Origin: Schmidtea polychroa
Taxonomy: Eukaryota
Length of the DNA: 64,000 nt
Assembly (NCBI GenBank): GCA_044892525.1
Contig: CM097885.1
Coordinates: forward strand, 6,264,001-6,328,000
Direction: 5' to 3'
The notes beneath the pieces were generated by a model, which ran no database searches, was not told the DNA's origin, and saw only the letters and a list, made by a program, of their open reading frames with translations. A program made the position numbers and the translations under genes. Below are positions 6,305-58,870 of this stretch, piece after piece (position 1 is the first letter of the stretch; each line of letters starts with the position of its first letter).

Positions 6305-7929
6305 TATAAGATGTATCTCACTGAGCTATACACAAAAGCGTATTTGATTATCATTAATGAGACATTCATTTAGCAATGTCAATTGAGCTTTGTTTTGGTT
6401 ATGAGTTATATTTTAATTTTGGTGTTAAAAGAATGAAAAAAGAAGCAAGATATTTATTTATTTAAATATACATTAAATTTTTCATAGTTCACCTAAAATA
6501 TCCAGTTTCTTCAAGCATTTCGGGAAGAATCTTTAATATTATTGTTTAAATGAATATATGATTTTTGAAATTACTATTATCTGGTTTTTTGAAGTTCCTC
6601 ATTAACTGCTTGGGATATTGCAGTTAATCAGTCATTGAAGGTAAATCTGTCTGCTAAATCCATCAGCCAAAGAAACTTTAGTTCTTACCCCATTTTTAAT
6701 TTTGCTAAACACACTTTTGATGGGGTTCACAAATGGATTATATGGCAACTTTTCAATTTGATTATTCAGTGAAGATATATTATGGTGGATGGATGCATTA
6801 TCGTGGATCAAAGTGAATCCATAGCCATTGTTTCACAGTCAATTCGGTTATAAATGACTGATATGATTCCTTTTAAAAGAGCTAATAATAATTTGTCAAT
6901 GGATTGGCCCATCTTTGGATATTGCCAAAACTAGAGAAATATTTGGAGCTTGAGTTGTCGCATATTGCTATAAATTCGATTGCCTACTCGTGATCTACCG
7001 AATCTCTTGTTCGTCCATGTATTGAAAGTGCATTCATCTATGAATCTTTTGACATGGAATAGTCAATTCTGATGAAACTTCTGACATATCCTCATACCTT
7101 TTTTTATAATTAATTAATTTAAATTGAAAATGTTTAGCTAATCAAATGTCCGTATGCGAAATCAATGTCCTGTTGTGTGTATTTTTTATTATAGAAATCT
7201 TATATTATAAAAAAGCCAAATCAATGTCCATTCGCTGATAATCAATTGCCGGTTGGTGTAAATGAGAACATCAACGTGAAATCAAAGTAAGTATGTATGT
7301 TTCTATAATGTAAGATTATTGATTTTTTTGTTGTATTATAGAAACGGTTCTCAGTAGTGTTTGGTGTAAAATGACAGGTTTTTATCTATCTAGCTATTGG
7401 CTGTTGATTCAGAAGTGGTCAGATCGAAATGAAGACATTATTATTTGCAATGTGACGGTATAGAAGATTTTAAGCGACATTTAGAAATGATTGAAGAATT
7501 CATGGAAATTTTCGTCAATCTCATCTGGAAAGATTTTTTGACAAGTCTTATGTTGCAAATCAAATACTGCGCAGGCAAGTTTCTCTTAGATCTCTTACCC
7601 ATCATCATACTCCTACGAACAAGTCTATTTGAACTTTTCTAGAATTTCTCAGATTATATGTTCAATCTCTTTGCTATGCTTGATATCGGACGCTGTACTA
7701 ATGCGTGCTATGTGACGATGTTTAGAAAAAATCGGATGAACTCTCATGATATTATATTGTTGAATGTGACTTCGAATATGTCGTTGATCAATAATTTCTA
7801 CGTGAAGTGCTGTATTTAGCAGACTATTGTGCTGAGGATGGAGGAATTGAAGCGCTTTGTAAATCTGGTTTTACGGAATACTACCATACATCTAAAATTC
7901 TAAAACATGAATCATCGCCACCCGTCACT

Positions 7930-21114: not shown

Positions 21115-24100
21115 AGCAGATGGATTTGGCCCCGCAAACCCAGGGGCCCACTAGACCACCCCCCGTTATAAAAATTTTTAAATAAACGTTTTTTTTCAAG
21201 GTCATATTTTTGTAATTTTAAATTTACAGAGTTCCAGCCAACGGAATTTATTGAACGATGGCTCATTTTAAACTCCAGAACAAACCTTTCGAATGAGCTA
21301 TATATATATATATAATCATTATTATTTCTAAAGATATTATTATTATTATTATTATTAATATCAAGTTTTATAAAATTTATTACAAAGTTTTATTATTAAT
21401 TTTATTATTTTTTGTACATTGTCTTATTCACAGCTTTTTCCAAATTTTTTATACAAGATTTTATTACAATGTTTGGAATATATCAAAATATACAAGTTTT
21501 TATAATATTTTATCCAAGTGCAACATTCTTAAATTTGAGAGGAGAAATCCTGATTTAAATTTATCTATAAATGTGTTTTCATTTAATCCTACCAGTTCTC
21601 ATCCCAATATTTCCGACGATTATGTAACTCACCACCCTCATCTTAGTATAATACATCGTTCTAAGGTTATCGATGGTAGGCCGATTTAATTATTACTTCT
21701 CAATAACAAAGATAAATATCATTATACGGCCGTTAATGATTTAGACAAGTTAATGAAATGTCATTTAAATGAGGATTGTAATGTACGAATAAGGTGTAAC
21801 TGATGCCCACATTGCCTTAATAGGTTCAGATATAAGAATGCTTTTGATCAGCATGTTGCTCTATGCTGTAAGAATCAGACTGGCACAACACTTTATACAC
21901 TCCCCAAAAATAAAGATTTATTGTTTACTGACTATTCAAAAACAGTTGCACCTCCCTTTGTGATTTATGCCGATTTTGAATCGGTTTTACCAGAACATAT
22001 CATACATCATCAAATTCATTTACCCATATCAGCAGGTCTTTTACTTATAAATAATTACAATCACACTAAATTTTATTTTGATTTTTTTGGAACAAATTGT
22101 ATTTTGGAATTTTTAAGGAAGGTGGAGGAAATTGCTACAATTGCCCTGCTATATTATGAGTCAAAGGTCATAAAGGCATGTCTACTTTGTCTTTTGCTCA
22201 GGAGCGTGCTTTCGGGTTAGCACTATTTGTTATTTGTGCAAAAAAGATATAATTAGTCCTGTTATAGATCATTGTCATTTCACCGGTAGATATTTAGGAG
22301 CTGCATGCAGGAAATGCAATGTCTCTCGTAGGATTAATAAATTATTACCGATAGTTTTTCATAATTTATGAGGCTATGATTTGCACTATATTTTGAAACA
22401 TGGCCTCAGTGATTTTGCCGCTTGGGAGTTGAATATTATACCTACCTCAACAGAGAAATTTATTTCTTTAATTGCTTATATTAACAAATTGCCTGTTCGT
22501 TTTATTGACAGCATGCAATTTGTTAATTGTTCTTTAGCCAAAGCTGTGAAAACTCTTACTACTTTTCCTTTAACGTCGTCTGTCTTTCAGAGGTCGATAA
22601 TTCATTCGAAAGGTATCTTTCCGTATACTTTTGCTACTTCTTTGGATGTGCTTGAGTCTACTTTGGAATTACCCCCTATTTGGTCTGATGTTACGGAAGA
22701 TGAGTACACTAAGGCTCAACTAATTTGGAGACAGCATAACTGTAATAATTGGTTAGATTGCATATTAACGTATCTTAAATTAGACGTATACCTCCTTGCA
22801 GCCTATTTTCAGAAATTCCGTGGAAAGGCCATTGGAATTCCCGGTATGTCTTGGGCCTCTAACATTAACGGAACCCATAGAACTTCTGCAGGACATGGAA
22901 ATGTATAATTTTTATGAGGGAGGTATACGGGGTGGGTTAACATTTGTTAACAAACATTACATTGCTACTTCAAATAATACAGAATTATTGTAAATAGATA
23001 TAAATAATCTATATGGTTGGGTTCTTAGCCAAAATCTTCCGTATGGTGATTTTTCTTAGGTGAATGATAATCTGAATGATGTTTTGCTTGAATATGTGAA
23101 CACGGATATTGATAACCTTCCATATGGGTATACAATGGAGGTTGGTATCGATATTCCGGAATGTGTGCACGATTTCTTGAATGATTTTCCGCTTGGGCCG
23201 GAAAAGTTGTGCCCGATTATTCAAAAGTCGAGAAGCTTATGCTTACGCATTGGCCAAAGAGGAACTACGTTCTTCACTGGAGGCTTCTTAAATTGTACAT
23301 AGAATTAGGTAGGGTTGTTGTAAATATTCATAGATGTATTAAATTTAAGCAAGCGCCTATATATTTAAAGCATATATAGACACCAACACAACTTTAAGAT
23401 CACAGTCTACTAGCAAAATATATAGGGGCTTGTTTAAATTAAATAATAATAGCCTGTACGGTAAATCCATAGAGAACCTCAAGAAACGAATGAATTTGAG
23501 GATCTATCTGAAATCTATCTGAAAAGATGATAGTATACGCCTCAAAACCGACTTTCCGGAAATCAATAAGAATTGACGGTGATCTGATAGCCACTCATTT
23601 AGAAAATGGCTCTATATGTTTAAACAGATTAAGACTAGTTACATAGGTCAAACAGTATTAGATCTGTCTAAACTGTGGATGTACCAGCATAAAAAATATT
23701 ACCAATAGCTTCTTTCTAGAGAATAAAAATCTCAAATTAGATGTCTTATTACCTCAGATGATCTCAGATAATTTATTGGACACATCTAACTATGATCCAA
23801 CACACCCCTTATATAATAGGAACCTTGACTCAGTCATCGGGAGGTTTAAAGATGAGAGCCAGGGATTAGGTTATTCAGAATGGATTTTCTTACACCCAAA
23901 ATGTTATAGTCTTTCAGACAGTAACATTTAAAGCAAAAGGGGTTAAATTACCTTGGACATCAATAAACCACCAAACTTATCTAGATTGTTATAACACAAA
24001 TCAGGTGATTTCTGAACTACAGACTAGAATAGGTACTAGAAATCATCAATTATTTACATTTAAAAACTCGAAAATTGCCCTATCAAATAATGATGATAAG

Positions 24101-27209: not shown

Positions 27210-28598
27210 ATGAAATATCATAAGTTTAAAAAAAAGGAGCTCAAAGCAGGCCTTGTTACGAACAATGAAACACTGGACGGAAACGAAAGCATTACAGTGA
27301 ACAAAGAACTAGTAACCGACCTCACAAATTGTCTATCCAAAGGTGAAAAAGGATTACTTTCACTAGGACCAAAGTTCAGTATAAACAGAGAAATAGATGA
27401 AGCAGCCATCCTCAATTTCAGAACAGCTCTTTGTCGCATTGCGTACCAGATCAAATGGAACAATACAATACCGCATGAAAATGAAAATAGCGAAAACCAG
27501 CTCCCAGTATACATAAACACAGATAAACTCTATCAACCAAATCCTGATGCAGAATTAGATTCAACACTCTCAAAGGTCTGTCACAAAATCATGGAGATAG
27601 TTGAGAAGGAAAGAAGAAAACCATATCTCTCAAACCTAACGAAAGACGAACAGGCAATATTAAAATCCCTTAAAAAGAAACCGTACGTTTACTTACCAAG
27701 TGACAAGAGGGGAGAATTTTGCATTATAGAGAAGAATCATTACTGTGAAGCTGGTTACGAACACCTCGGCAACATCGAAACTTACAAGAAAGGCAGCCGC
27801 ATGTCACCAAACACCATCGAAATGAAGATCAACAAAGTATGGAAAGCCATAGCTTTGGAAATGAGGCTCAACAACAGAATAACCAACAGCTTCGTCACAA
27901 AAAATTCTGATCTTCCTAACTTCTACCACCTAATTAAAACTCACAAAGAGGGTCCTGGTATCAAAATTAGACCTATAGTGTCCAACAAAAATGGACCAAC
28001 AACTAAAACAAGTTGGCTCCTTGCAAAGATCTTGAAACCTTTATTGGACACGATACCACACCATCTTCAAAGCAGCGACTGCCTTATGACAAGACTAAAT
28101 AATAACATGACTTGTCATAGAGAATTCCAATACCCATTTAGTCTTGATGTCGTATCACTATACACATCTATCGAACCAACAGAGGCTATTCAATGTTTAG
28201 AAAAGAAATTAAGAGAAAGCAACTTGTTAATAAAGGAAATGAATATCGAGAATATCACCAAACTACTTACTGTTATCCTCGAGAACACCTATTTTACCTT
28301 TGAACAAAATATCTATAAACAAGTTAAAGGTCTGCCTATGGGTTCTAGCATATCAGGACTGCTAGCAATCATCTTTATGGATAACCTCGAACGACAGACA
28401 CTGAGGACCATACAACCCATCGGTTTCTATGCAAGATATGTAGATGATATCTTCATCACGACCAAAAACAGAAAAGAAGCGGAGGAAATATTTCATACAT
28501 TCAATGCGGCTCATCAAGATATTAAGTTCGAAATCGAATATCCGGAAGAAGATGGATCCCTCAATTTATTGGATTTGATCTGTTTTTGTTTTTCTTAA
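27210..28598 (+). mobile_element. Penelope-like retroelement reverse transcriptase ORF, 3'-truncated (no GIY-YIG)
   Basis: Uninterrupted 462-aa ORF with PLE motifs LLSLGPKF, SNLTKDE, PSDKRGEF, FYHLIKTHK, IRPIVS, SLDVVSLYTSI, QVKGLPMGS, RYVDDIF and SLNLLDL. Confidence 0.92.
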
Positions 28599-38823: not shown

Positions 38824-41241
38824 TAGGACACCGAAAACTCTAATTTCGGATTTTTCGGTTTCGACCGAAAAATAAATTTATTTATAAAAATTTGTATTAC
38901 TTTAAAGATTGAATTTTTTACTTTTAAATCTATTGTTAAAAAATTGTTAAAAAATTTTTATACTTTTACTTTTTAATTTTATTCCAGTTATTTCCCATGA
39001 ATAGTTCGAATTCAAAAAAAGGAGTGAAGTTTGGAATTATTTTGAAGTCGATGAAATAGAATAAAATATTGCAATTTGCAATATTTGTGGAACAGAAGTT
39101 AAACGAGGCAAAAGAGGATGTCCGAGGCTTTTTACAACGAGTTCCTTGGAATACCATTTAAAATCAAAGCACGCGATAAATTTAAAGTTGTTAAAGGGAT
39201 CTGACGAAGATATCGATCTGGGTAAATTGAAACAAACTACTTTGGTTGATATTTTTAAACCTTGTAATATTTGGGAAATAGAAAATCCAAATTCAATAAA
39301 AATTTCTATTGCGATTGCAAAAAATGATTTCATTAGATCTGCAACCATATCAATTGTCGAGCAAACAGGATTTAAAAATCTTCCTAAAGTTCTTGAGCCA
39401 AGATATATAATTCCTTCTAGAAAGTACTTTTCATATAATATGATTCCATCGGTTTTCGAAAATTTAAAGAAAAATATTAAAAATCAGCTTAAAAGAATCA
39501 ATTGCGTCTCATTAACTACTGATATGTGGACAACTGAGTTTACAACTTTTTGTTTCATGTGCTTCACTGCACATTGGGTTTCTGAGGAATTTGAAAGAAA
39601 AAGTAGACTCAGCTCATGCGAGCCTTTCAATTTACAACATACTGTTGATAATATCGGTAATGAATTTGAAAATTCATTGATCGAATGGAATTTATATACA
39701 AAATGTTCTTTTATAGTACATGATAATCCAGCAAACGTTCAAAAGGCGTTTAGAACCAACAGGGCCGTAACAAGGGTGGTGCGAGCGGTGCAGTTGCACA
39801 GGGCGCACATCTGAAAGGAGCGCAAAATTGGGATATACCACTTTTTTAATGTCACCAAAAAATGAAAAAATATAAATAAAAAATAATAAATTACATGAAC
39901 GAAAAAAAAACGACATCCTAGCTAGCCTATCTTTAACATTACTGATTGGACAGGTCATTAGCGTGCCTTCGTAGGTGTGTATTTTATAAAATGTTAGTCC
40001 ACAAAATGGGTTCCTGTCATTTTTTCAATTAGCAACAGAATTTTAAGAGCATAATAGCTGGAGATGAATACATAGTCAACAATCTTAACATGAACATTAT
40101 AATGATTATAGTACACTGTTTTGAATTCGCGTGTTGGGGGCGCCAGATATATAAACCACACAGGGCGCAATAATGCCTTGTTACGGCCTTGAGAACCAAA
40201 TATATCGAAGAAATTCTTTGTTTTTCGCACACGTTACAATTAGTGATAAAAGATCCTATTTATAATTTTGATGAAATTCTAAAAATTCTATTTTCCATTT
40301 GAAAAATTATTGGATATTTTAATAGTTTTTAAGAATTACTAAATCAATTTGTCGCAAAAACAAAAACAAAAGTAGACTATTGATTAATAAAATTTATTGT
40401 TGTTGTGAATAATTATTTATATTCGTATAAATTTTTTATGTAAGACCCTACCCTCGCGCTAAGCACTGGTCAAACCTCTGAGCTCGCTGACGAGGTGAGG
40501 CGTCGATGCCTTACGATACTTTATATAGTAGAGCGCGGCTCAGCTACCGAAAATTAAATCATAGCGCAAGTGGTTAAATTGAATTTATCATTGATAGCAA
40601 GAAGTGAAAATATAATTAGCAATCCTATTTATATTATTTCAACTTTGCTAGATCCAAGATTTAAAAACAAAATATTTGATCCAGCAAATTTTAATTTAGA
40701 TTTAATTAAAAAAGAAATGATTAAATTTTTTCCTAAATTTGAAATCGAAAAAACTGAATTAAAAAATGAAATTATTTTTGAAAAAAATTCAAATATTTGG
40801 AATTTATTAGATAATTTTGATTCTTCTATTGAGATTGCTAATTGCAAATATTCTTATTCAGCTTTTGAATCCGAGATAAATAATTATTTATTTGTAAGCT
40901 TATCTCCAAAAGATAAAGATATAATTAATTACTGGAAAATTATTTCTAACAGGTTTTCTTACTTTCTAACCTAGCTAAACAGTTTCTATCGTGCCCTTCG
41001 ACTAGCGTTCAATCTGAGCGTGTTTTCAGTTGTGCTGGAAATGTAATAACTGATCAGAGCTAAAATTCTTTCTGAAAATGCTGAAAAAATAGTTTTTAAA
41101 AAATTAAACAATAAATTTTTAAGTTAAATTTTTTTAAAAGTGGTTGTAAAAATTTTTTTGTTTCAAAAATTTAATATAATGTTGTTCACAAAAATTTTCG
41201 GTTTCGGTCGAAACAAAAAAACTCAATTCGGTGCACCCATA
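38824..41241 (+). mobile_element. hAT (Ac/ZBED1-ZBED4-like) transposon with both ends, interrupted by nested insertions
   Basis: 8-bp TSD gtaatagg (38816-38823 and 41242-41249); ends taggacaccgaa / ttcggtgcacccata. BED finger VWNYF..AICNICG..HLKSKH; SLTTDMWT; CFTAHW; VHDNPAN; CFSHTLQL after insert removal; TLLDPRFK; CPSTSVQSERVFS dimerisation domain. Confidence 0.9.
39760..40191. mobile_element. hAT-type MITE nested in the transposase gene
   Basis: TIRs cagggccgtaacaagg / ccttgttacggccttg with a perfect 8-bp TSD agaaccaa. Removing it restores ..QKAFRTKYIEEILCFSHTLQL. Confidence 0.9.
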
Positions 41242-41642
41242 GTAATAGGACAATGGATCATAACAAATCGGTCATATTAATAATATATACTAATAATTTT
41301 ACATTAATTAAATATTAAATAAGTTAGGATAAAATGTCCAAAATGTTTATGTATGGGAAAGATAAGCTAATGCGCGTAAGTATTTTATCTCATTGGTTTA
41401 TTCGAAGGTTGCCATTGCTCTACCAACTATATCGCGGAGAATGCAATAACGCTTGAGCGCTGGTTATTTTAAGCCTGTGTACCTTGGAGAAACGACACTC
41501 TGTTTCACATTGTTAGGTGGCTGCACTAGAACAGCACCTGAAGATCATTGTGCCACCCTTCAACAGCATATGTAGTGGGCGCAATTATCCATTTTTTTAA
41601 TATAAGGGTATGGATATCTGTTTCGGCCGATTTCGTTTTTTG

Positions 41643-41705
41643 TCGCGTCTGTGTGCGCGTGGATGTTGGAATTGTTTTCGTGTTGGTATGCGCACACAGA
41701 CGCGA
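41643..41705 (+). promoter_or_regulatory. GC-rich dyad element, copy 2
   Basis: Perfect 16-bp arms tcgcgtctgtgtgcgc / gcgcacacagacgcga, followed by a candidate intron gtacgt(41713)...tttttag(41834) and the cofilin-like ATG at 41867. Regulatory role is inferred. Confidence 0.45.
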
Positions 41706-41866
41706 GGAATTGGTACGTTTTATTTTTTATTGTAATTAAAAAATTGATTATTGTTTGCTTGTAAAATTGTAGATTAGATTTTCTAGAAGTTGATTAAACA
41801 GTTGTTTTAGTGTTACAAGGATTTAAATTTTTAGAACAAATCAATTGATAAAGTTCCTTTGTTAAA

Positions 41867-42175
41867 ATGACTTCAGGTGTTAAATGTGACCCTTAAGTTG
41901 AAGAATATCTTAATTACATTAAATTACAACACAGATTTCAATATGTAATCTTTGGACTCAACAAAAAGAAGGATAGAATTATTCAATTAGAAACTGGGAA
42001 ATTAGGTACTCCTTATGAAAAATTCAGATTACACATGATGGGAACATATGTTAAAGAAGGTTGCTATGCATTATATGACTATCAAGGTACTTTGGCGTTT
42101 ATTTCATGGAAACTAGAAACAATGAAAATCAATAGTCGTATGATTATGGCTGCTTCAAAATCAAACATTGCAACC
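41867..42175 (+). pseudogene. Cofilin/ADF-family fragment (N-terminal ~100 aa, one stop at codon 10)
   Basis: MTSGVKCDP*VEEYLNYIKLQHRFQYVIFGL..YEKF..EGCYALYDY..LAFISW..TMKINSRMIMAASK fits the ADF-H pattern MxSGV..K....RY.IF..C.YA.YD..L.FISW.P....K.KM.YA.SK. Confidence 0.75.
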
Positions 42176-42415
42176 AACAGCCTTATTTCTGCATCAAGGA
42201 ATAAATCTAGGATTATTTAGGATGACTTTGAAAGTGATGCTGTTATGTCAAATGATGGTCAATTTTCATTGTCTGGATCATGGGACGGGACTTTAATGTT
42301 ATGGGATTTATCCAAATTTATCTTCTCGCCAAACATATATTGGCTATGTGCTGCAACTGGATCGTCTATCCAGATTTGGGAGTCGGAAAATAAAGTTTCG
42401 GTTGGAGACTTGAAA
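42176..42415 (+). pseudogene. RACK1: RACK1 fragments (end of WD1, WD2, WD6) collapsed together
   Basis: LISASRNKSRII* ~ [41 protein letters not shown] ~ [59 protein letters not shown] ~ [31 protein letters not shown]. Confidence 0.85.
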
Positions 42416-42457
42416 GCCTATTCTAATGAAATCTATTCAGTTCTAATTTTTCTTAAA

Positions 42458-42628
42458 ATGTCGTTAAATTGTTCTGTTTCCAACGAAATTCTTGAAGTTC
42501 CAGTTCTTAATAGATTATCAGGACATGTTTCTGAAAAAAGGTTAATCGAAAAACATTCGATGACAAGTGATCTAGATCCTATTATTGGAATACAGTTTTC
42601 TGTAGATGATTTGATTGAAATTAAAGTT
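42458..42628 (+). pseudogene. PRPF19: Prp19 N-terminal U-box fragment
   Basis: MSLNCSVSNEILEVPVLNRLSGHVSEKRLIEKH...DPI...FSVDDLIEIKV ~ Prp19 [33 protein letters not shown]...DPI...LSEEQLIDIKV. Confidence 0.85.
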
Positions 42629-42795
42629 CCAATGCATTTTCTTTCTTGTATTCACTCGATTCAAACTGTATTTTAAACGAAAATCAATAAATCATTAACA
42701 AAAGTAAAACTTATCCATAAACATTGATGGGAATGTCAACACAAATGAAATTTAGAGAATACACTCAAATTCTGTATATATCGCGCAGTCAAAAA

Positions 42796-43250
<455 letters not shown>

Positions 43251-45319
43251 AATGAAGATCTGTTTAGACTTGTCACATATAGCTACAGTGGGAGGATAAA
43301 TTTCTATACTGGCCTTCATTTGAGTCGACTATCGAATATCGAAAATTTATGTGGTGCGTCCAATAAGTAGTGAGACTCGTATAGAAATAAATAAATGAAC
43401 GCAAATATCTTTCGTATTTACAATAAGCAATTCATGTAAAGTTTATTTCTAAACTAATTTCCAGTTATATTGACACATTTTCCTCAGAGTGTAATCAAGA
43501 TCTTGAAGCCAATTTTGATGCTTAAAAGGGCTTTTAATTGATTCTGGTCTAAAAATTGGATGCCAATTGAAAAGGAATCAGTGGTGAAAATCGAATGAAC
43601 TTCTTATAATCTTCAGGGACAGTCCTGTAAATTCCTGATAGAAAATATTTTCTTTAATTTGTTGAAAAATATTTAATAAATTCAATTATAATTAATATAA
43701 TTAAAAGAGAAAATAGTGAAAAAAATAACTAAATTTAATAATTTTTACTAAATAAATAAATACAGTTTATTTGATTTTAGTTTTTAGTTTATTATAAACT
43801 TCAAACATCCTTTTGAAATGGAAAGTTATCCAGGAAATAATCAATCTGCTGTGTATCAATTTATTGGAGGGGGGGGGGGGTGTTGAGAAATGAAGTGAAA
43901 ACCAATAATTACAATTTAGCGACTTTTTTTCAAAATTTAAAAATATGTTTAATCATTACGTAATCTTTTGATCCAGAATGATTATGTAACTAAACACTGA
44001 GTGTTTGCAATTCCAGAAACCAATTAGAGCTACAAAAAAGGTATTTGGAAAAGAAGCTTTAAAAAATTAAAAGTTTCTGGTTGATCAAGACCAACGAATC
44101 AGCCGTCCAATGTTTGTTATCAGTTCAATCTGTAAATTCTAACATTTGCCTAGCCTCCACTGTCATGGAACCAATATCCGCCAGTGACTTCCGGAAAATC
44201 TCTTTACCAAAAGAAAACTTTATTAGCCTTATGCAAACCTTCAGGCCAGATAATGGAACATTTGGAAAATCCAAATTTTAATCAACTCTAAAATGAGAAA
44301 ATTCATAACCTTTTCAGTAAAATCCTTTATTTAAAACCCTTGAAAAGGCAGTGCTAAAGATTTGTGTTATACTGTTGGAATAATTGGATCGATAATCGTA
44401 ATAAAAATAAATGAAAATTTCCAATAAATATTTTAATAAAAAATGAAATAAATATGACTGTCACGTTCAATAACAAATAATATTGTTGCGGTATGATCCT
44501 GGTGTGGGGAGTCTCCATAAAACCGAACACCAACGACATCAATCACTTTCTGACGGTCTCTTCTCAGAGATAATAATAATTATTATTATTAAATCTTGTT
44601 TTTTCATAGTAGAAATTTTACTCAACCCAGTTTCTCTGAGATTTTCGTATTCTTTTTCGTCCAGTTGGCAGTAAACTGCTGTTTGTTCACTATTTTCAAT
44701 CCCAATTTAACAGCGATTCCCTTGTTTTCCAGTTTGGCAAAATGAGGTCAAAGAAATCTTAACGGGAATAACAGATTTCGGTAAACAAATCTGTAGGGAT
44801 TCTAATGAGCAAAACTTGGGCGACTGTAACTGGGGAGGGTCATCCAAGCTGCGGTTAATTAGGAAATGGCCAACTAGGCGGCAGAAATGTTAAAATGTTT
44901 GTAAAAGTAACCAAAATGTAAAAGTAACATCTCAATTAATTTTAAAACCACAAACTAAATTAAAAATTGATGTAACTTGGAGGAAACAGGAATGTATGGA
45001 TGGCAAATAATGAGACAAATACAAATACAATCAAATCAAATCAATGGAAGTCCCTAGAAAAAGATATTCAAAAAATACAAATTAATTAAAAATAAATAAA
45101 TAATTTAGTTGCTATTTGAGAAACCCGAGCGAAAAATGAGAAAATAATGACATTAACCGTTTCTCCAAAATCATTAAAAAGGTTAAGTTTCGCAAAATGA
45201 AATTAGCTGTGGATTGAAAGTGTGGTTAACAATATTGTAAGGAAACAATATTGTTTGGAAATTTAAACTATAGGATAGTGTCAACTTCATGGAAAGTACG
45301 CAATATGTTTATTAATAAG

Positions 45320-51098: not shown

Positions 51099-53397
51099 AA
51101 ACAAGCTGCTATTGTGTTTTTAAAATTTGGTGATTTTATTTTCCACTAGAAATGATTAAAGAGTCAATAAGATTTTAAATAATTAATTAATTAGTATGTA
51201 TTTTTGTAATTACATCTATTGGAAACTCTTCATTGATTATTAAATTCATTTTCGATTTTTAATTTGTTACCTACTTCCATACTTTCTTGAAAAATACATT
51301 AACAATGTTGCAAAAGACTATGAAATTGTTACCAATGCTATGTATAGTGAGTTTCTTGCTATTAGTGAAAAGTTCTGCGAACTAATATACGAACTAAAAC
51401 GTCCAGTAATAATATTTTTCAATAAACAAAAAATTTTGTCCAAATATTTAGTGTTTTTATTTACCTGATTTTTATTTATATTTCACTTTTAATTAATTTT
51501 GTATTTTCTTACATGTTTTAGCAAGTAGGGTAATGAAATTGACTCCTCTATCATGTTTTCATTTAATATTTGTTGATGATAATGTAAAGAAATTTCAATT
51601 AAAATAAAAAAAGTATTTGATCAGAGGTAATTGTATTATCCTCCTTAGTAATAAAAGGGTTATTACCCTGTTTCAAAAAGTTTGTTATAACTTGAATTTA
51701 TTGAGTGTAAAAGTATTCGAGTTAAAAAACGCCCTTTTTGTTAAAAAATGAATTGAAAGCTTAAGTTGCATTGTAAATAAAAATACAAAATAATTACAGA
51801 GAAAAAACTTGAAAACCTTATTCAAAATATTTATTTTAGAAAAATTTCTCTACAAAAAATTATTTGCACATCGTCGTGTGTAATTTTGAAATTTTTCAAA
51901 TAATTGAGTCCCTGCTTTTTGTGTGCCGGTGATGATTTCTTTTTTATTAACAAATTTTTTGTGTGTAAAATAGAAAATTTAGCAAAGAAAATAGTTACAA
52001 GTTTCGCTAATTGTAAATAAAAGAAAAGTTGAAGAATACGGTTATGTCAATAAAATTTTAAGAGTTAATAAAAATAACAATTCGGTAACATTTGAATTAG
52101 TTTCATATTTCCCAAACTCATGAAATGTTGAATCCTTTCATGTTTCAATAAACAATGACTACAAAGCGGCTAACAGAAAAAGGTAAAAAAAACAAAATTT
52201 ACAAAAGTTTAAAATTTCATGTCGCTTACTAAACAGAATGGTAAACAAGGCCATAGCTAATACAAATTGGTTTTTACATGTTTGAGGAGTATTTATTTTA
52301 TAAATTAATTTTTTAAATCAACGTTCCCTGTGTCATATTTCAATGTTATTCAGTCGAAGTCTAGCATTTTAAGCAAATTTTTTCATGATATTTTAGTAGA
52401 ATTTTTTGAAATACTGATAATAAAATTATTTACACCTAGACGTATCTGGGAAGCATGGCTAGTTACACGCGAAAACTGTATTTCAAAGATATCCATCAAC
52501 AATAGCAACCAAAAAATACTCAACTCAAATTTTGTCCCCAATCGGTTTTATGTGTCCCTAATTTTTGTAATGTAAATTCTTAAATAAAAATAATTGTAAC
52601 ATTTTATTTTTTACTTGCTTTTATGAAATCTATTCTGGCAAAATTTACAGTTTGAAAAATTTGGTTAAAAATATTTTAGGTAAACAAATAAAAAAAGATG
52701 AAAGAAAGGAAGCAAAATAAGTAGTCAAATTAAGAAAATAAAAAGCTAAATGAATATTTTCTTAGGTTTTAATTCGGATGCTGACATTTTTAGAAATATT
52801 TGTACGGAACTTTAATTTTACAATTTCCAGTATAATTTGCAACTTCTTAAAATCTATAGGCTCTTTTTTTGAAATATTAGTACATGTATCATCATTTTTT
52901 CATTACTATTTTCTGAAACAATAATGAACATTTTTGGAAAGACTAAATAAGTCACTAAATTTAAAATTTTAATCTTGAAAAAAATTAATTTCCCAAATTT
53001 CAAATACTCATGTAAACTAACTAAACGGATAAAATAAAAAGCATTAAAGGAAAATTCAAAACTTGTTTAACCTCGAAATACTTTTTATAATTTTACACTG
53101 CATTTTACGTTTAATAATGTAACTTGAAATATATTAACTTAATATTAAAATATTAAATTATTATGTGGCTTTTAATCTATATAAAAAATTGCTTGAAATA
53201 AAATCATTATTGAAATTCTTAATGAATTGTATTTTAGATATTTTAAAATTTCGTTTTTTTTTGTTATATAATATATTAAAAAATACAGAAATTGACTATA
53301 AAAAGGTTTGTTTAAATAAATTATATTAATAACAATTTTTAAGTAATTTATATATATTTTAAAATTGGTTTATCGGAAATTTAAATTTTAATTCAAA

Positions 53398-53748
53398 ATG
53401 GACATTTACAATGGATCCTCTGAACCAAATAACTCAAAATACTTACAAATCGATAAAAATTTAATAAATGACCCACTTCAATCTTCTGATTGGGCATCCA
53501 AAAAGTTGATTTGGATACCAGATGACTTAAATGGATATGCAATTGCTCAAATTTTTAAAGAAAGTGTTGAAGAATGCATTGTTCAGATACCAGAAACTGG
53601 AAAACAAAAAGTGATTTTAAAAGATCTTATTCAAAAAATGAATCCGCCAAAATTTTCAAAATCAGAAGACATGGCGAATTTGACTTACCTCAACGAAGCG
53701 TCTGTATTAAGCAATATCAAAGAAAGATATTTCAGTGGATTAATTTAT
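53398..53748 (+). CDS. Myosin II heavy chain coding exon 1
   Basis: ATG to ..FSGLIY|gtaagt. Confidence 0.92.
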
Positions 53749-56700
53749 GTAAGTTATTTTATCAAAGTAATTGCATATATTTATTATTTAGACATATTCT
53801 GGTTTATTTTGTGTTGTATTAAACCCATACAAAAGACTTCCAATTTATAACGATGAAATTATCGAATGGTATAAAGGACGAAAACGTCACGAAAGGCCAC
53901 CTCACATATATGCTATAGCAGATACAGCATATAGAAACATGTTACAAGACAGAGAAGATCAATCAATTCTTTGCACGTTAGAATCATTGAGTTTTTAATT
54001 TCAAATAAATAGAATTCGGTTTTTTCAGTGGTGAATCAGGAGCTGGGAAAACAGAAAATACGAAAAAAGTCATCCAATATTTAGCATCAGTTGCAGCAAG
54101 TATGAAAAACCAGAAACTCACCGCCTCAAATGCCATTGCTCAATTTCATGTAAATTTTAATTAATTTCCATTTAAATTTTCCATTAAATTCAACTAGGCA
54201 AGCGCGATTAATATTGTAAGTGGTTTTTATTTGACTTATAGTTGTCTTTCGATGTTTAATTTGCAACGCTTTCCATATTAATGAGCTGCCATTGGAATGT
54301 TTGTTGTGATGCTGATAATGCTGCTGCTGCTATTGCTATTATTGCTGCCGTTTGTATTATATAATGGGATTTATTAATAATTTATATTTAATTATTATTA
54401 TTATTATTATTATTATTAAATTTGCTAACAAATCAAGGTTCCATTTGTCGATTTGTTGGTTGATATTGATGCCACTACACAATCAATGAATACGCTGGAA
54501 TGAGTCAGTGGAATTTATAATAATAATAATAATAATTATTATTATTGCTTCTGATACATTCAATGATGATTATTTTGCTGCTGACGTTCTCTGTAATTGG
54601 CCGGTGATCGATGTTGCCAGCAATTCAACACACACACACACACACACAAGCAAATACACACACACTCGACTGTGATTCTGACATGCAATTCCACAAAAAT
54701 CGTGCTGGTGTGTGTGTGTGTGTCAAACACATCTGCACAATTTCTCTCTCATTTCATTAGTTGGAAATTTTATTTAAATTTTTAATTAAATTTTAAATTT
54801 CCTTGATAATATTAAAATTACAAATTATGTTATTGGTCGATATCGGTGATTTGTGTAGGTTTTGGGGCTTGTGTAACACACATTGTCATTGGTTATTGTT
54901 ATTATTGTTATTTATTTCGGTTCTTTTTGTTAGGGCGAGTTGGAAAAGCAATTGTTGCAGGCAAATCCGATTTTGGAGGCTTTCGGGAACGCAAAAACCA
55001 TTCGGAATGATAATTCATCCAGATTTGTTAGTTTTTCTAATTGGTGATTGAATTGAATGTAATTTAGGGTAAATTTATCAGGATCAATTTCGATAGTTCC
55101 GGATTCATCGCCGGTGCTAATATTGAAACATGTAATATTTTAATTAATTTTTTTACAATTAATTAAAATATAATTTTTATATATAAATGAAAATAATATT
55201 TTTTATGATTAATTTTACGTACAAATTATTTTTTATTTCTACAATTAATTTATAATTAATTATTTGTAAAATAAATTAATTAAAATGAATTCATTAGATT
55301 ATGCGAACAAAATATTTTAAAATTTACATTTAACTTCAAATTAAATAATTAATTAATTAAAATAAGTTAAAAAAATATTTTAAAATTTTAATTCTTAATA
55401 AATATTTTTTAATAATTTATTTTTTTTACAATTAATTTTTCTAAATTAATTAAAATATAATTTTTATTATTAAATGAAAAAATATTTTATTATTGATTAA
55501 TTTTATGGACAAATTATTTTTTATTTTTACAATTCATTTATAATTAATTATTTGTAAAATAAATAAATTAAAATTAATTCACTAAAATATGCGAAAAAAA
55601 TATTTTAAAATTCCACATTTCCAACTTGTTCTCTGTCCAAAATTTTTTAAAGATTTTAATAAAAATCGTGAAATTTTTTTTTAATTAAAAAAATATATTT
55701 ATGGCGTACCTAAATTGAAAAATTTTTATCTTTAAAATTATTCAAGTGTAAAAAAATATTTGGTATCGATTTAAAAAATTTAATAATTTTTGATATATTA
55801 AAAAATTTTTGTCGTTAAAATTATTATTAGTTAAATACAATTATTTAATTTTATATATATATTTAAAATTTTTATAATTCCACATTTTCAACTTCTCTGT
55901 CCAAAATTTTTTAAAAATTTAAATAAAATTCGTAGGAATTTTTTTAAATTAAAAAAATATTTTTATGGTGATCCATTTATGTTCCTGCACCGCGTACCTA
56001 AATTCAAAAATTTTTATCTTTAAAATCATTCAAAAATTGCACTGAAGGCTAAAAAAATATTTGGTATCGATTTTACAAAAATCGAGTTGATCCATTTTCC
56101 CAAGCGAATGTTACACTAAATACTTAATCTATATAGTTCACAAATATATTAACATATCAAGCATATTAAATAAATTTAATTTTAATTGTTGCTAATGAAG
56201 GCATATTTATTTGGTATCGATTTTTATTTTTACAATTTATTAAAATTAATTTTTTAAAAAAATTTATTTTAACTTCAAATTAAATAATTTAATTATTTTT
56301 ATGATTAAGTTTAATTAATTATTAATTTTTCTGATTTAATTTAAATTGATTAAATAAATTTTTTATTTCTACAATTTAATAATTTTTGACAAGTTAAAAA
56401 TATTTTTATTGTTAAAATTATTATTTATTAGTTAATTACAATTATTTAATTTTATACATTTTTAAAATTTTTATAATTCCACATTTTCAACTTGTTCTGT
56501 GTCCAAAATATTTTAAAAATTTAAATAAAATTCATGGGAAATTTTTTAAATTAAAAAATCCCGTAAAATTATAAAAAAAAATTTTAAAAAAATTCGAGTT
56601 GATCCATTTTCCTTGGCGAATGTTACATTAAATACATAGTCTATGTAATCAAAAAATATATTTACACATTAAGCGTATTAAATAAATTTAATTTTAATAT

Positions 56701-58635
56701 TTATTTTAATTTTAATATTTATTTAATATTTATTTTTTTATAATTCGACATTTTTGACTTGTTCTCTATCCAGAAAATTTTTAATATTTTTTTTAAATTA
56801 TAAAATAAATTTATGGTGAACCGTTCCAAAAAAACAATTGAAAATAAAATTCTTTTTATTTGTTAAATTATCCAAAAAATGCGTTGAAGTCTAAAAAAAT
56901 TAGTTATTGATTTTCCCAAAATCCCTAACATCCCATTTTGTTCTCATCCCTATTCTCATCACTGTTTCACCTACGGACAAAAATGTACATGACAAAAAAC
57001 ATTTTATTCAGATAGAATTTCTAATTCCAATATTCAAAATTTAAGGTAAAACGCAAATTGCAATCGAGGTCATGAAAAAATTTCATTTGAGGTGAGTTAC
57101 TAATCCTTGCACATGCTTTTAATCCACTTGAAATTATTTTGATCAACTTAATCATTGTGTTATGTTGAAATAAGTTTAACCATATCACGTAACTAATAAT
57201 GCTGTTATATCTGAGGGTAACTTTTAATGCGCATTTTAGTTATATAATTTTTCAAACTCAAAAACTCTGTATAAATCCGATATAAATCCACAATACAAGG
57301 AAGATTATAGTCTGTTAATTTTATCAATAACCTTTGCCTTTGTAGGAATTTCATTGAGAGACCGAATCGGGATTTTCGCAATTAAATTTTAAAATCTAAA
57401 ATGAGCTGTAAAATGAAAAATGTGGCGAGGGATTTAATTTTAAAATTTTGTTTAAATGAAGTGAATTTTTGTTTTTTTGTTTTAATGAATTTTTTTAATT
57501 TCATTAAAATTTCTGTATTTTCAATAAAACTAATAAATCTTCTTTCGTGCATTGAATTTACAAGAAAATCTAAATTAAAAAATTGTTAATTTTATATTTA
57601 ATTTCTAATTAAATATTTAAATATTAATTATTATTAATAAGTCAATAATTTTATTTTAAATTTTATTTTTAACTTCAAATTAAATAATTAATTAATTTTA
57701 ATTTTTAAAATTTAATAAAATCGATTATTTTTTAAATAAATAATTTAAAATAAGTGAAAAAAATATTTTAAATTAAATAATTAATTAATTTTTATGATTA
57801 AGTTTTTTGGGAAAATATTTTTTATTTTTAAAATTTAATAAAATCGATTATTTTTAAAATAAATAATTTAAAATTTAAAATATGTGAAAAAAATATTTTA
57901 AAATTAATTAATTAATTTTTATTATTTAGTTTTATTGATAAAATGAATAAATTATAATGAATAATTTAAAATAAGTGAAAAAAATATTTTAACATTAAAT
58001 AATTAATTAATTTTTATGATTAAGTTTATTAATTATTTTTAAAATAAATTAATTAAAATAAGTGAAAAAAAAATTTTTTCTAAATTTTTCTTAGTATTTT
58101 TCATTGTCGTTCGCTTCATATGTTCTAATTCTTTTGTCAATTGTTCACTAGCTTTTTATTTATACACAAAATTACAGTTAATTATATATGGAAGTATAAA
58201 AAGGAAAAGCAGGACTTATGGAAGATATAATTAATTCTTTTTAGTTACCGACATTCGTGAGACGAGTATTCTAAATTCATTTCTTGCTCCCTATTATTGA
58301 TGTGTTTAAATAAAAAAAGTTCACAACTCTACTAAAACATCTGAAATAAAAAATTAAAATTACAGATTTGCTCGAAAAAGCTCGAGTTATTCGACAGGCA
58401 TCTGAAGAAAGATCATTTCATATTTTCTATCAGTTATTGTCAACCAAATCGGAGATGAGAAACACTTTATTGCTATCTGAAATGTCTGCTTATAGATTTC
58501 TTTGTGAGGGTTCTGCCTCAATTTCAGGAATTGATGAGGTGCAAGCATTTAATGAAACTGTGGAAGCGTTAAAGATAATGGGAATCACTGATGAAGAACA
58601 AGAATGTAAGCCTCATTTTTTAATTTTTAATAATA

Positions 58636-58692
<57 letters not shown>

Positions 58693-58745
58693 TATTAATA
58701 AAATTTATTATTATTAATATTTATTATTATTATTTATTCTTATTA

Positions 58746-58801
<56 letters not shown>

Positions 58802-58870
58802 CATTATTATTATTATTTATTAATAAAATTTATTATTATTAATATTTATTATTATTATTTATTCTTATTA

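What the first reader, a model, noticed from the sequence alone, without database searches (positions are those of the whole stretch)
41867..42676. Cofilin + RACK1 + Prp19 U-box joined in one reading frame
Seen: from ATG 41867 to TAA 42676 a single frame encodes a cofilin/ADF fragment, three non-contiguous RACK1 pieces (WD1 end, WD2, WD6), a 14-codon linker and the Prp19 U-box. It is broken only by two stops (TAA 41894; TAG 42218, where RACK1 has Trp). All four junctions keep frame, roughly (1/3)^4 by chance if independent. A candidate 5' intron (41713-41834) and an acceptor-like ctaat..ttcag before the Prp19 ATG suggest DNA-level copying rather than retroposition. Inference: (a) a once-translated chimeric gene linking actin-binding, WD40 and E3-ligase modules; (b) cargo of a gene-capturing transposon; or (c) a deletion-collapsed duplicate of a tight cofilin-RACK1-Prp19 cluster or operon. 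Any of these would be notable.
Basis: partly seen in the sequence, partly recalled or inferred. Interest (0 to 1): 0.82.

Follow-up and report, generated by a model that had tools for sequence, protein, structure and literature searches.

The report
Retrotransposon repeat stitched from host mRNAs
The cofilin-RACK1-Prp19 frame is real but is not a host gene: it lies inside a lone, decayed terminal repeat of a Bel/Pao jumping gene and was pieced together from spliced host messages, and in related elements such host-derived frames run on through a ubiquitin into the capsid protein, which likely lets the element carry ever-changing host pieces that host enzymes would cut off.

Summary
The fused frame is real, but it lies inside a 1,045-bp solo LTR (41619-42663, TG...CA) with at least 67 dispersed relatives. 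Two-LTR relatives carry the same cofilin-RACK1 junction in both LTRs, then a tRNA-Met primer site, ubiquitin and Bel/Pao Gag. The parent genes are unlinked, and the window copy lacks two cofilin and two RACK1 introns exactly. Capture was therefore through RNA, likely by template switching: the cofilin-RACK1 joint is the longest word the two genes share. Across the family, LTRs carry many other host pieces, open in the primer-site frame (55 of 90 loci; other frames 1 and 0), and often run into ubiquitin-Gag-Pol. Shared substitutions show no amino-acid constraint, so the frame is kept but not the domains. Likely mechanism: Gag translation starts at a host-derived AUG in the LTR, and a di-glycine ubiquitin would let host enzymes cut the leader off (untested). 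Distant Bel/Pao polyproteins with ubiquitin, host domains and the primer-site peptide form one clade. The scan noted this family four times before on other DNA of this genome; those notes, as shown, concern this genome only.

The parts
41619..42663 (+). Solo LTR of a Bel/Pao retrotransposon family (1,045 bp, TG...CA)
   Evidence: The same 5' start and 3'-end type flank internal Ub-Gag regions in two-LTR element L076 and precede the PBS in L124 and L141
41614..41618 (+). Left copy of a decayed 5-bp target duplication (ATATC)
   Evidence: Empty-site copies L224 and L225 show the two flanks adjacent
42664..42672 (+). Four extra bases (AACT, same as the spacer and first PBS base after 5' LTRs of this type), then the likely right target copy GTATT
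   Evidence: Origin of the four bases is inferred
41624..41717 (+). Conserved LTR 5' block with a long stem-loop (GCGTCTGTGTGCGC...GCGCACACAGACGC), seen in the LTRs inspected
   Evidence: Fold -47.6 kcal/mol, z -7.4, 0 of 200 shuffles
41713..41846 (+).
   Evidence: No match to the cofilin gene; variable among copies
41847..42174 (+). Cofilin mRNA piece: 20 nt of 5' UTR, ATG 41867, codons 1-102 of 133; both host introns (54 and 42 nt) absent; stop at 41894
   Evidence: 94.5% to spliced host cofilin L064
42165..42174 (+). Cofilin-RACK1 joint on the longest word shared by the two host coding sequences (10 nt, same frame in both)
42176..42222 (+). RACK1 piece 1 (end of WD1); host intron 1 absent; stop at 42218
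   Evidence: 85% to spliced host RACK1 L056
42227..42310 (+). RACK1 piece 2 (WD2)
   Evidence: 89%
42318..42418 (+). RACK1 piece 3 (WD6); host intron 2 absent
   Evidence: 91%
42434..42637 (+). Prp19 mRNA piece: 5' UTR, ATG 42458, U-box codons 1-60
   Evidence: 88% to host Prp19 L025
42620..42625 (+). ATTAAA hexamer 38 nt before the LTR end, supplied by Prp19 coding sequence; candidate poly(A) signal
   Evidence: Sequence. The hexamer lies 20-60 nt before the PBS in 63 of 90 family loci versus 1-12 of 90 in control windows. Function inferred
41867..42663 (+). LTR leader frame; 797 nt from ATG to LTR end, which is the register of the PBS (GSRAW) frame in L124 and L141

Best explanation
The locus is a decayed solo LTR of a Bel/Pao retrotransposon whose LTRs carry spliced host mRNA fragments, likely gained by template switching during reverse transcription and likely kept in frame because Gag(-Pol) translation would start at a host-derived AUG inside the LTR and run through the primer site and a ubiquitin that host enzymes are predicted to cut. 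Shown: LTR anatomy, primer site, polypurine tract, Bel/Pao Gag/Pol, exact intron loss, unlinked parents, a joint on shared words, stepwise intermediates (RACK1 alone; RACK1+Prp19; cofilin alone; cofilin+RACK1), and frame bias towards the primer-site frame. Inferred: (1) The cargo lies in a long R region, transcribed at both ends of the RNA; this follows from the frame bias and from the poly(A)-like hexamer near the LTR end. (2) The donor-like AAG|GTA 40 nt into the primer-site region would silence the 5' poly(A) site. (3) An out-of-frame capture would act as an upstream ORF that blocks Gag synthesis or triggers decay, so only in-frame captures spread. (4) Cleavage after the conserved L-x-G-G would free Gag from any leader, which is why leader content can turn over with little amino-acid constraint. 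The window copy itself is a dead remnant.
For: Ends and TSD: perfect 5-bp duplication in 9 of 15 copies with both ends located (5 of the 9 are in AAT microsatellites and so weak) and 6 of 18 in a second set (two overlap the first set; four new ones are in unique sequence). There are 67 exact copies of the 17-nt end, control 0. Two-LTR elements: L076 has cofilin+RACK1 in both LTRs (97.7% alike), then PBS, Ub-Gag and PPT; L074 and L075 carry cofilin; L077 RACK1; L186 Prp19. PBS: 430 exact copies, control 0, complementary to a genomic tRNA-Met(CAT) 3' end. Pfam of one 2,189-aa frame that starts in the LTR: ubiquitin, DUF1759, RVT_1, Peptidase_A17, integrase, DUF5641. Intron loss: 2 cofilin and 2 RACK1 in the window; Prp19 intron 1 in L022-L024. 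Frame bias: >=100 open codons upstream in the PBS frame at 55 of 90 loci versus 1 and 0 in the other frames and 0 on the reverse strand; 17 of 19 among young pairs. The PBS frame is longest in 23 of 29 unrelated LTR types. Ubiquitin lies in that frame in 48 of 72 loci. Ubiquitin tail ends GG in 73 of 85 matches. Large shared indels in the window family keep frame in 6 of 6 versus 14 of 39 private (p 0.005; two adjacent alignment gaps merged by hand). Distant relatives: 7 of 120 Bel/Pao hits carry ubiquitin, all in one clade with this family (11 leaves, FastTree support 1.0). A PBS-like GSRxW/GSRAC peptide precedes Gag in 5 of 10 clade members versus 1 of 110 others.
Against: No transcript start, poly(A) site, translation or cleavage was observed. 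No two-LTR element carrying all three cargo pieces was found. In 24 of 72 loci ubiquitin is out of the PBS frame, including two young elements, L074 and L075. Methionines also occur just after the PBS, so an LTR AUG is not strictly needed. One control frame is closed near the PBS by the AATAAA itself, so the fair contrast is 23 versus 5 types. Two small shared indels (1-2 nt, in simple runs) break frame. The window copy's TSD is imperfect and offset by 4 nt. The ubiquitin tails are diverged (LCGG, LAGG and others), and cleavage is untested. The 90 loci are 90 of the first 100 listed of 430, all on contig C1. The 18 pol-bearing loci were chosen for long frames or high scores. For the distant proteins no DNA was seen, so their leaders are placed in LTRs only by the PBS-like peptide; P0143 lacks it and could be a gene-model fusion.
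Confidence: 0.8

Rival explanations
1. The leader peptides are functional. The element expresses pieces of host proteins (cofilin, RACK1, U-box, proteasome alpha, DUSP12, Rab, CCT) as decoys or inhibitors that favour its replication in stem cells, and ubiquitin cleavage releases them.
For: Cargo is dominated by abundant housekeeping and protein-turnover genes. Frames are kept open. No nonsense change among 45 variants shared by >=5 copies versus 30 of 433 singletons (p 0.10). Host-versus-family differences are 25 N and 20 S, below the singleton ratio of 3.5 (p 0.002).
Against: Shared variants within the family have N/S 2.2-3.6 versus 3.5 for singletons (no significant drop). The host-versus-family excess of S includes the host gene's own purifying selection. 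Domains are truncated or cut internally, one subfamily has lost most of the U-box, and leaders differ wholly between subfamilies.
Confidence: 0.12
2. The cargo is selected at the RNA level: host-like sequence shields the LTR from piRNA silencing or supplies strong host start contexts. The open frame is a by-product of in-frame microhomology plus avoidance of nonsense-mediated decay.
For: Captures often include the host 5' UTR and ATG: cofilin, RACK1 in L057 and L141, Prp19. Short words shared by two coding sequences are somewhat frame-biased (44 of 96 at >=6 nt). LTR elements are piRNA targets in planarians (PMC8532177, passages).
Against: A joint in frame between two cargos does not explain being in frame with the PBS and ubiquitin. 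No small-RNA data were examined. This reading can coexist with the best explanation.
Confidence: 0.2
3. A host chimeric gene, once translated for its own function, later pseudogenised.
For: Single frame across all pieces; no column's commonest codon is a stop among 37 copies.
Against: The frame is bounded by LTR ends and has no stop of its own inside the repeat. It is dispersed in dozens of copies at 80-96% pairwise identity. None of 26 checkable copies is open. The same junction sits in both LTRs of L076.
Confidence: 0.02
4. DNA-level capture by a Pack-type DNA transposon or Helitron, or collapse of a duplicated gene cluster (options b as worded, and c).
For: Short imperfect terminal inverted repeat (TGTTTCGG / rc TGAATCGA) and a target duplication.
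Against: Five host introns lost exactly. PBS, PPT and Gag adjoin the same repeat type. Parents are on two contigs, and the two on C3 are 53 Mb apart.
Confidence: 0.01

Closest known systems
LTR-mediated retroposition in metazoans (Tan et al. 2016, PMC5131818; passages read)
   Same: Partial spliced mRNA copies, microsimilarity at joints, chimeras of two or more genes (including one in a Pao element), and further rounds of retrotransposition.
   Different: There the retrocopy replaces part of the internal ORFs and makes a non-autonomous element. Here it sits inside both LTRs, occurs in elements with unbroken Gag-Pol frames, is in frame with Gag, and turns over across many subfamilies.
Bel/Pao superfamily, possibly the Flow lineage of cnidarians and a planarian (de la Chaux and Wagner 2011, PMC3118150; passages and section 12 read)
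   Same: Single Gag-Pol frame with DUF1759, RT, Peptidase_A17, integrase and DUF5641; about 8 kb.
   Different: That paper's main text has no occurrence of 'ubiquitin' or 'additional domain'. Flow membership could not be tested without reference sequences.
Yeast Ty1 (PMC5454406; passages read)
   Same: The tRNAi-Met primer site lies inside the translated GAG frame, after a 53-nt 5' UTR.
   Different: Ty1's stretch before the PBS is short and the element's own. Here it is 150-300 codons, host-derived, hypervariable and followed by ubiquitin.
Ubiquitin insertions of cytopathogenic pestiviruses, BVDV Osloss, CP1 and CP Rit (PMC8310069; passages read)
   Same: A captured cellular ubiquitin inside a polyprotein serves as a host-cleaved processing signal that frees the downstream protein; it works like the step proposed here.
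   Different: RNA virus, sporadic insertions, cleavage shown. Here it is a fixed, clade-wide feature of a retrotransposon, and cleavage is untested.
Burro giant Gypsy elements of planarians (PMC6431247; passages read) and maize Bs1 (PMC13317346; passages read)
   Same: LTR elements carrying host-derived domains or gene fragments; Burro includes a Ubi2/SUMO-like motif.
   Different: Burro is Gypsy-type with fixed extra domains after Gag; in Bs1 the pieces form a chimeric gene carried by the element. Neither passage describes host pieces in the LTR read into Gag.
U1-mediated silencing of the 5' LTR poly(A) site in HIV-1 and foamy virus (review PMC12789967; passages read)
   Same: Poly(A) signal in R with a splice donor just downstream; a donor-like AAG|GTA sits at a fixed place in 69 of 90 loci here.
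   Different: Only the layout is matched; no function was tested.

Membership tests
Solo LTR of an LTR retrotransposon | TG...CA ends | tested here: met
   41619 TG, 42663 CA; shared by copies
Solo LTR of an LTR retrotransposon | Short target-site duplication around the lone repeat | tested here: met
   Perfect 5 bp in 9 of 15 and 6 of 18 copies. In the window copy it is decayed and offset by 4 nt; the empty site was found
Solo LTR of an LTR retrotransposon | The same repeat occurs as a direct pair around an internal region, with PBS and PPT | tested here: met
   L076 (cofilin+RACK1 type), L074, L075, L077, L186. No pair with all three cargo pieces was found
Bel/Pao retrotransposon | Bel/Pao Gag (DUF1759) and Pao RNase H region (Peptidase_A17), with RT before integrase in one polyprotein | tested here: met
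   Pfam on L144 frame; DUF1759 in L074 and L075; nearest database relatives are Bel/Pao polyproteins
Bel/Pao retrotransposon | tRNA primer-binding site | tested here: met
   18-nt complement of a genomic tRNA-Met(CAT) 3' end plus CCA
Flow lineage of Bel/Pao | Placement in the Flow clade of a Pol tree | not testable with these tools
   No labelled Flow sequences were at hand; the tree has unlabelled neighbours
LTR-mediated retrocopy (Tan et al. 2016) | Host introns precisely lost | tested here: met
   Cofilin 2, RACK1 2, Prp19 1
LTR-mediated retrocopy (Tan et al. 2016) | Microsimilarity at joints | tested here: met
   10-nt longest shared word at cofilin-RACK1; 8-nt in-frame word near the WD2-WD6 joint. 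The RACK1-Prp19 joint has 15 unassigned nt instead
LTR-mediated retrocopy (Tan et al. 2016) | Retrocopy replaces internal ORFs between intact LTRs | tested here: not met
   Cargo is inside both LTRs, and internal Gag-Pol frames can be unbroken
Pack-type DNA transposon | Captured fragments keep introns; long terminal inverted repeats; no PBS or PPT | tested here: not met
   Introns lost; only a short imperfect terminal repeat; PBS and PPT present in relatives
Functional chimeric host gene | Intact frame under purifying selection | tested here: not met
   0 of 26 checkable copies open; shared N/S 2.2-3.6 versus 3.5
Functional chimeric host gene | Transcribed and translated | tested here: inconclusive
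   No RNA holder on record; only contigs of runs guessed to be RNA, laid on a relative, not on the window
Ubiquitin processing-signal fusion (pestivirus type) | Ubiquitin in frame ahead of the released protein, ending in di-glycine | tested here: met
Ubiquitin processing-signal fusion (pestivirus type) | Cleavage by host hydrolases | not testable with these tools
   Needs a biochemical assay

The most novel reading that the evidence does not exclude
An old Bel/Pao clade, spread over distant hosts, has turned its LTR into a translated, hypervariable cassette that continually samples the 5' ends of abundant host mRNAs. A fixed ubiquitin lets host deubiquitinases free Gag from whatever was sampled, so the element can swap host start sites or host-like shields without cost. 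It would be a retroelement with a built-in, renewable exon-shuffling leader and a steady source of mosaic open frames across the host genome.
Probability: 0.4. Interest if true: 0.88.

Novelty: new variant of a known kind. Interest (0 to 1): 0.73.

Why it matters
Host-gene capture by LTR elements is known as a rare accident that disables the element. Here it is routine, sits in the LTR itself, coexists with unbroken Gag-Pol frames in young copies (LTR pairs 98.5-100% alike), and is filtered for frame. That gives a natural series of template-switch events whose intermediates are preserved, and a testable reason (a cleavable ubiquitin) why capture is tolerated. It also has a practical cost: this genome holds at least 187 RACK1-like, 108 cofilin-like and 16 Prp19-like matches. 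Most of those inspected are LTR cargo. They can inflate gene-family counts, confuse read mapping and RNAi design, and could feed small RNAs against essential genes. The window copy itself is a dead remnant; the interest lies in the family.

Tried and rejected
A pattern joining the window's LTR end directly to TGG found no primer site (1 near match); the spacer is 3 nt in this type. The pair of ends 35.6 kb apart on contig C95 is a 100% identical 8.4-kb duplication, not an LTR pair. L087 looked like the cofilin parent but is another LTR copy with an insertion; the parent is L064. No Ub-Gag sequence lies near the window copy. A database search with the ubiquitin-bearing region returned polyubiquitin-type proteins in the 120 rows listed of 265. 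RNA: no RNA holder listed. Contigs of three runs guessed to be RNA and one of unknown kind cover much of a related element but show no clean splice joint, start or end, and the LTR-cargo contigs run on into unlike sequence as a host mRNA would; this is no evidence on expression. Splicing from the donor after the PBS to the nearby acceptor-like sites would shift frame by my reading of L075, so it was not adopted as the route to Gag. Literature: nine of ten searches (the tenth was for the pestivirus analogy) returned no listing that describes a Bel/Pao element with host pieces in its LTR fused to ubiquitin-Gag. Grohme et al. 2018 is not held. The Repbase report of a planarian BEL family cited in PMC3118150 was not seen. 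In PMC11410931 the main text has 0 hits for Pao or ubiquitin and 3 supplementary files have none, one file being unreadable. Unseen supplements and Repbase entries may describe the family. No fold prediction was run: the pieces are truncated and a fold would not decide anything. The host taxon was not established by my calls (one search gave no names); planarian papers were read as the likeliest place for a prior description.

Full report
Observation. Pfam finds cofilin at aa 15-103, with weaker WD40 and U-box hits. Solved-structure sequences assign RACK1 to aa 118-184 and Prp19 to aa 198-255. The genome is 781 Mb and AT-rich; I did not establish its taxon.

It is a repeat with LTR ends. A search with 41600-42780 scored 40 of 1,306 candidates and all matched (the window itself, and 39 others at 76-91%), many over 41614-42664. 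The shared unit runs 41619-42663, begins TG and ends CA. A perfect 5-bp duplication flanks 9 of 15 copies whose two ends were located, 5 of them in AAT microsatellites. It also flanks 6 of 18 in a second set, four of them new and in unique sequence. The 17-nt end occurs exactly 67 times, control 0. In the window the duplication is decayed: empty copies of the flanking repeat join the two flanks, and four extra bases follow the LTR.

Two-LTR relatives. L074 and L075 have direct repeats 99.4% and 98.4% alike, each holding cofilin. A primer site follows the first repeat and a purine tract precedes the second, around a ubiquitin-ubiquitin-Gag (DUF1759) region without pol. L076 has the window's cofilin-RACK1 junction in both repeats (97.7%), the window's 5' start and a like 3' end, a primer site, Ub-Gag and a purine tract. 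L077 carries RACK1 and L186 carries Prp19 in both repeats. The window's own end type is followed by AAC and the primer site in L124 and L141. No pair with all three pieces was found. The primer site occurs exactly 430 times, control 0, and complements the 3' end of a genomic tRNA-Met(CAT). Of 18 pol-bearing loci, chosen for long frames or high scores, 17 have LTR pairs 98.5-100% alike. In 11 of them one frame of 1,928-2,238 codons begins inside the 5' LTR and crosses the primer site. One such frame has ubiquitin, DUF1759, RT, Peptidase_A17, integrase and DUF5641: a Bel/Pao polyprotein.

Capture went through RNA. The parents are cofilin at C3:125.09 Mb, RACK1 at C1:38.26 Mb and Prp19 at C3:72.30 Mb. 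The window copy aligns without a break to spliced cofilin (94.5% over 329 nt) across introns of 54 and 42 nt, and to spliced RACK1 across both 44-nt introns. Sister LTRs with more of Prp19 lack its 41-nt first intron. The cofilin-RACK1 joint falls on the longest word the two coding sequences share, 10 nt and in frame in both, as template switching predicts. The RACK1-Prp19 joint has 15 unassigned bases instead. Intermediates survive: nearly whole RACK1 (L057), internally deleted RACK1 (L077, L079), RACK1 with Prp19 set into it (L092, L093, L141), cofilin alone (L074, L212), and cofilin with RACK1 (L076). The likely order is RACK1, then Prp19, then cofilin at the front (inferred).

The family does this routinely and in frame. 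I examined 90 of the first 100 listed primer-site loci (of 430), all on contig C1. Upstream of the primer site, 55 of 90 have at least 100 open codons in the frame that reads it as G-S-R-A-W, against 1 and 0 in the other frames and 0 on the reverse strand. Among pairs at least 98% alike the count is 17 of 19. Collapsed into 29 unrelated LTR types, that frame is longest in 23, the second in 5 and the third in 1; the third is closed by the AATAAA itself, so 23 versus 5 is the fair contrast. Pfam names cargo in 17 of 23 leaders scanned, three of them below the curated cut-off: proteasome subunit, dual-specificity phosphatase, CCT, Ras/Rab, adaptin N, Hsp70, EAP30, U-box, cofilin and a zinc ribbon (one weak BLUF hit not counted). 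Ubiquitin was found downstream at 72 of 90 loci and lies in the primer-site frame at 48; 30 of 72 have a leader of 100 or more codons open all the way to it. Against this, 24 of 72 are out of frame, as are the young L074 and L075. The window's ATG-to-end distance (797 nt) puts it in the same register.

Frame, not protein, is conserved. Among 37 window-type copies (80-96% alike), indels of 4 nt or more shared by three or more copies keep frame in 6 of 6, private ones in 14 of 39 (p 0.005). I merged two adjacent gaps of one lineage by hand, and two shared 1-2 nt slips do break frame. Substitutions show no amino-acid constraint: N/S is 3.5 for singletons and 3.4, 3.6 and 2.2 for variants in 2, 3-4 and 5 or more copies (none significant). 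Nonsense changes are 30 of 433 singletons and 0 of 45 in the last class (p 0.10), and no column's commonest codon is a stop. Host-versus-family differences are 25 N to 20 S (p 0.002 against singletons), which includes the host gene's own selection. None of 26 copies with a locatable ATG is open today.

How it likely works. A poly(A)-type hexamer lies 20-60 nt before the primer site at 63 of 90 loci (controls 1-12), a donor-like AAG|GTA at +40 in 69 of 90, and the ubiquitin tail ends in GG in 73 of 85 matches. A strong hairpin opens the LTR (z -7.4). I infer a short U3, a long R holding the cargo and a very short U5. Reverse transcriptase crossing this long R would switch onto co-packaged abundant mRNAs and back, often taking their 5' UTR and AUG. 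Scanning ribosomes would start at that AUG, so only captures in frame with Gag would spread. Cleavage after L-x-G-G would then free Gag from any leader. The donor would silence the 5' poly(A) site as in HIV-1 (PMC12789967, passages). None of these steps was observed, and expression could not be judged.

Beyond this genome. Of the 120 best database relatives of the Gag-RT region (of 364), 7 carry ubiquitin before Gag at 39-44% identity. In a tree of 119 of them plus this family, all 7 fall in one clade of 11 leaves with support 1.0. The other three database members of the clade start at or after the ubiquitin tail. Their N-termini include kinesin plus Sec23/24, a TRAF finger and an HSP90 piece. 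A GSRxW or GSRAC peptide precedes Gag in 5 of 10 against 1 of 110 outside. Their DNA was not seen, so LTR location is inferred there.

Comparison with what is known. Capture by template switching, with multi-gene chimeras, is described by Tan et al. 2016, but as replacement of internal ORFs (PMC5131818, passages). A primer site inside a translated Gag frame is known from Ty1 (PMC5454406, passages). Captured ubiquitin as a host-cut processing signal is known from pestiviruses (PMC8310069, passages). Bel/Pao families from a planarian are listed without such features (PMC3118150, passages and one section). I found no description of the combination in the searches named under Tried and rejected; Repbase and Grohme et al. 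2018 were not seen. After reaching this reading I looked up the scan's notes: four earlier findings in this genome describe the same family. They agree with my result but are not independent support.

Verdict. A real feature and a member of the Bel/Pao LTR retrotransposons, not a host gene, operon relic or DNA-transposon cargo. The LTR-encoded, host-derived, hypervariable leader ahead of ubiquitin-Gag is a new variant of a known kind. Identity as a solo LTR with RNA-derived cargo: about 0.97. In-frame translation as the filter: about 0.8. Ubiquitin cleavage: about 0.6. Interest 0.73.

Noticed in passing
window 38825-41242: hAT-like DNA transposon with inverted ends (TAGGACACCGAAA / TTTCGGTGCACCCA), a zf-BED frame at 39065-39814 and two later insertions; it ends about 380 nt before the LTR.
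   Followed up: no
window 27210-28598 and 21804-22908: A 462-codon reverse transcriptase frame (RVT_1; Penelope-like by recalled motifs) and fragments of a type-B DNA polymerase, Polinton-like.
   Followed up: no
window 53392-58823: Exons of a myosin heavy chain (Myosin_N, Myosin_head).
   Followed up: no
L095:1391-1870; L076:2750-3100: A DEAD-box helicase fragment (Pfam; eIF4A-like by eye) is captured after the primer site, between it and the ubiquitin, in the same frame in L095; so capture is not confined to the LTR.
   Followed up: partly
L076:2146-2322 and 6501-6707: A ubiquitin-ubiquitin junction piece is inserted into the cofilin cargo of both LTRs, a capture nested within a capture.
   Followed up: partly
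L074, L075 (G000:C3:80.90 Mb; C1:242.68 Mb): Young elements without pol: two ubiquitins, Gag and a long acidic, Asn-rich tail in place of Pol; likely a non-autonomous branch. Ubiquitin is out of frame with the LTR leader in both.
   Followed up: partly
L230 (G000:C1:79.32-79.39 Mb): The priming tRNA-Met gene stands in a 454-bp tandem array; 1,228 exact matches of its 3' end genome-wide.
   Followed up: no
L078:1816-5995: Three cofilin-bearing LTR units in tandem at 1.3-kb spacing, about 99% alike.
   Followed up: no
L001-L020 flanks: Many copies are inserted in (AAT)n microsatellites, at one or both ends.
   Followed up: partly
LTR 5' ends, e.g. L163, L171, L201: The stem-loop block at the LTR start occurs in two or three tandem copies in pol-bearing subfamilies; its role (promoter, strand transfer, packaging) is unknown.
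   Followed up: no
window 42911-43300: By eye a decayed pogo-like transposase fragment after the (AT)n run; not confirmed.
   Followed up: no
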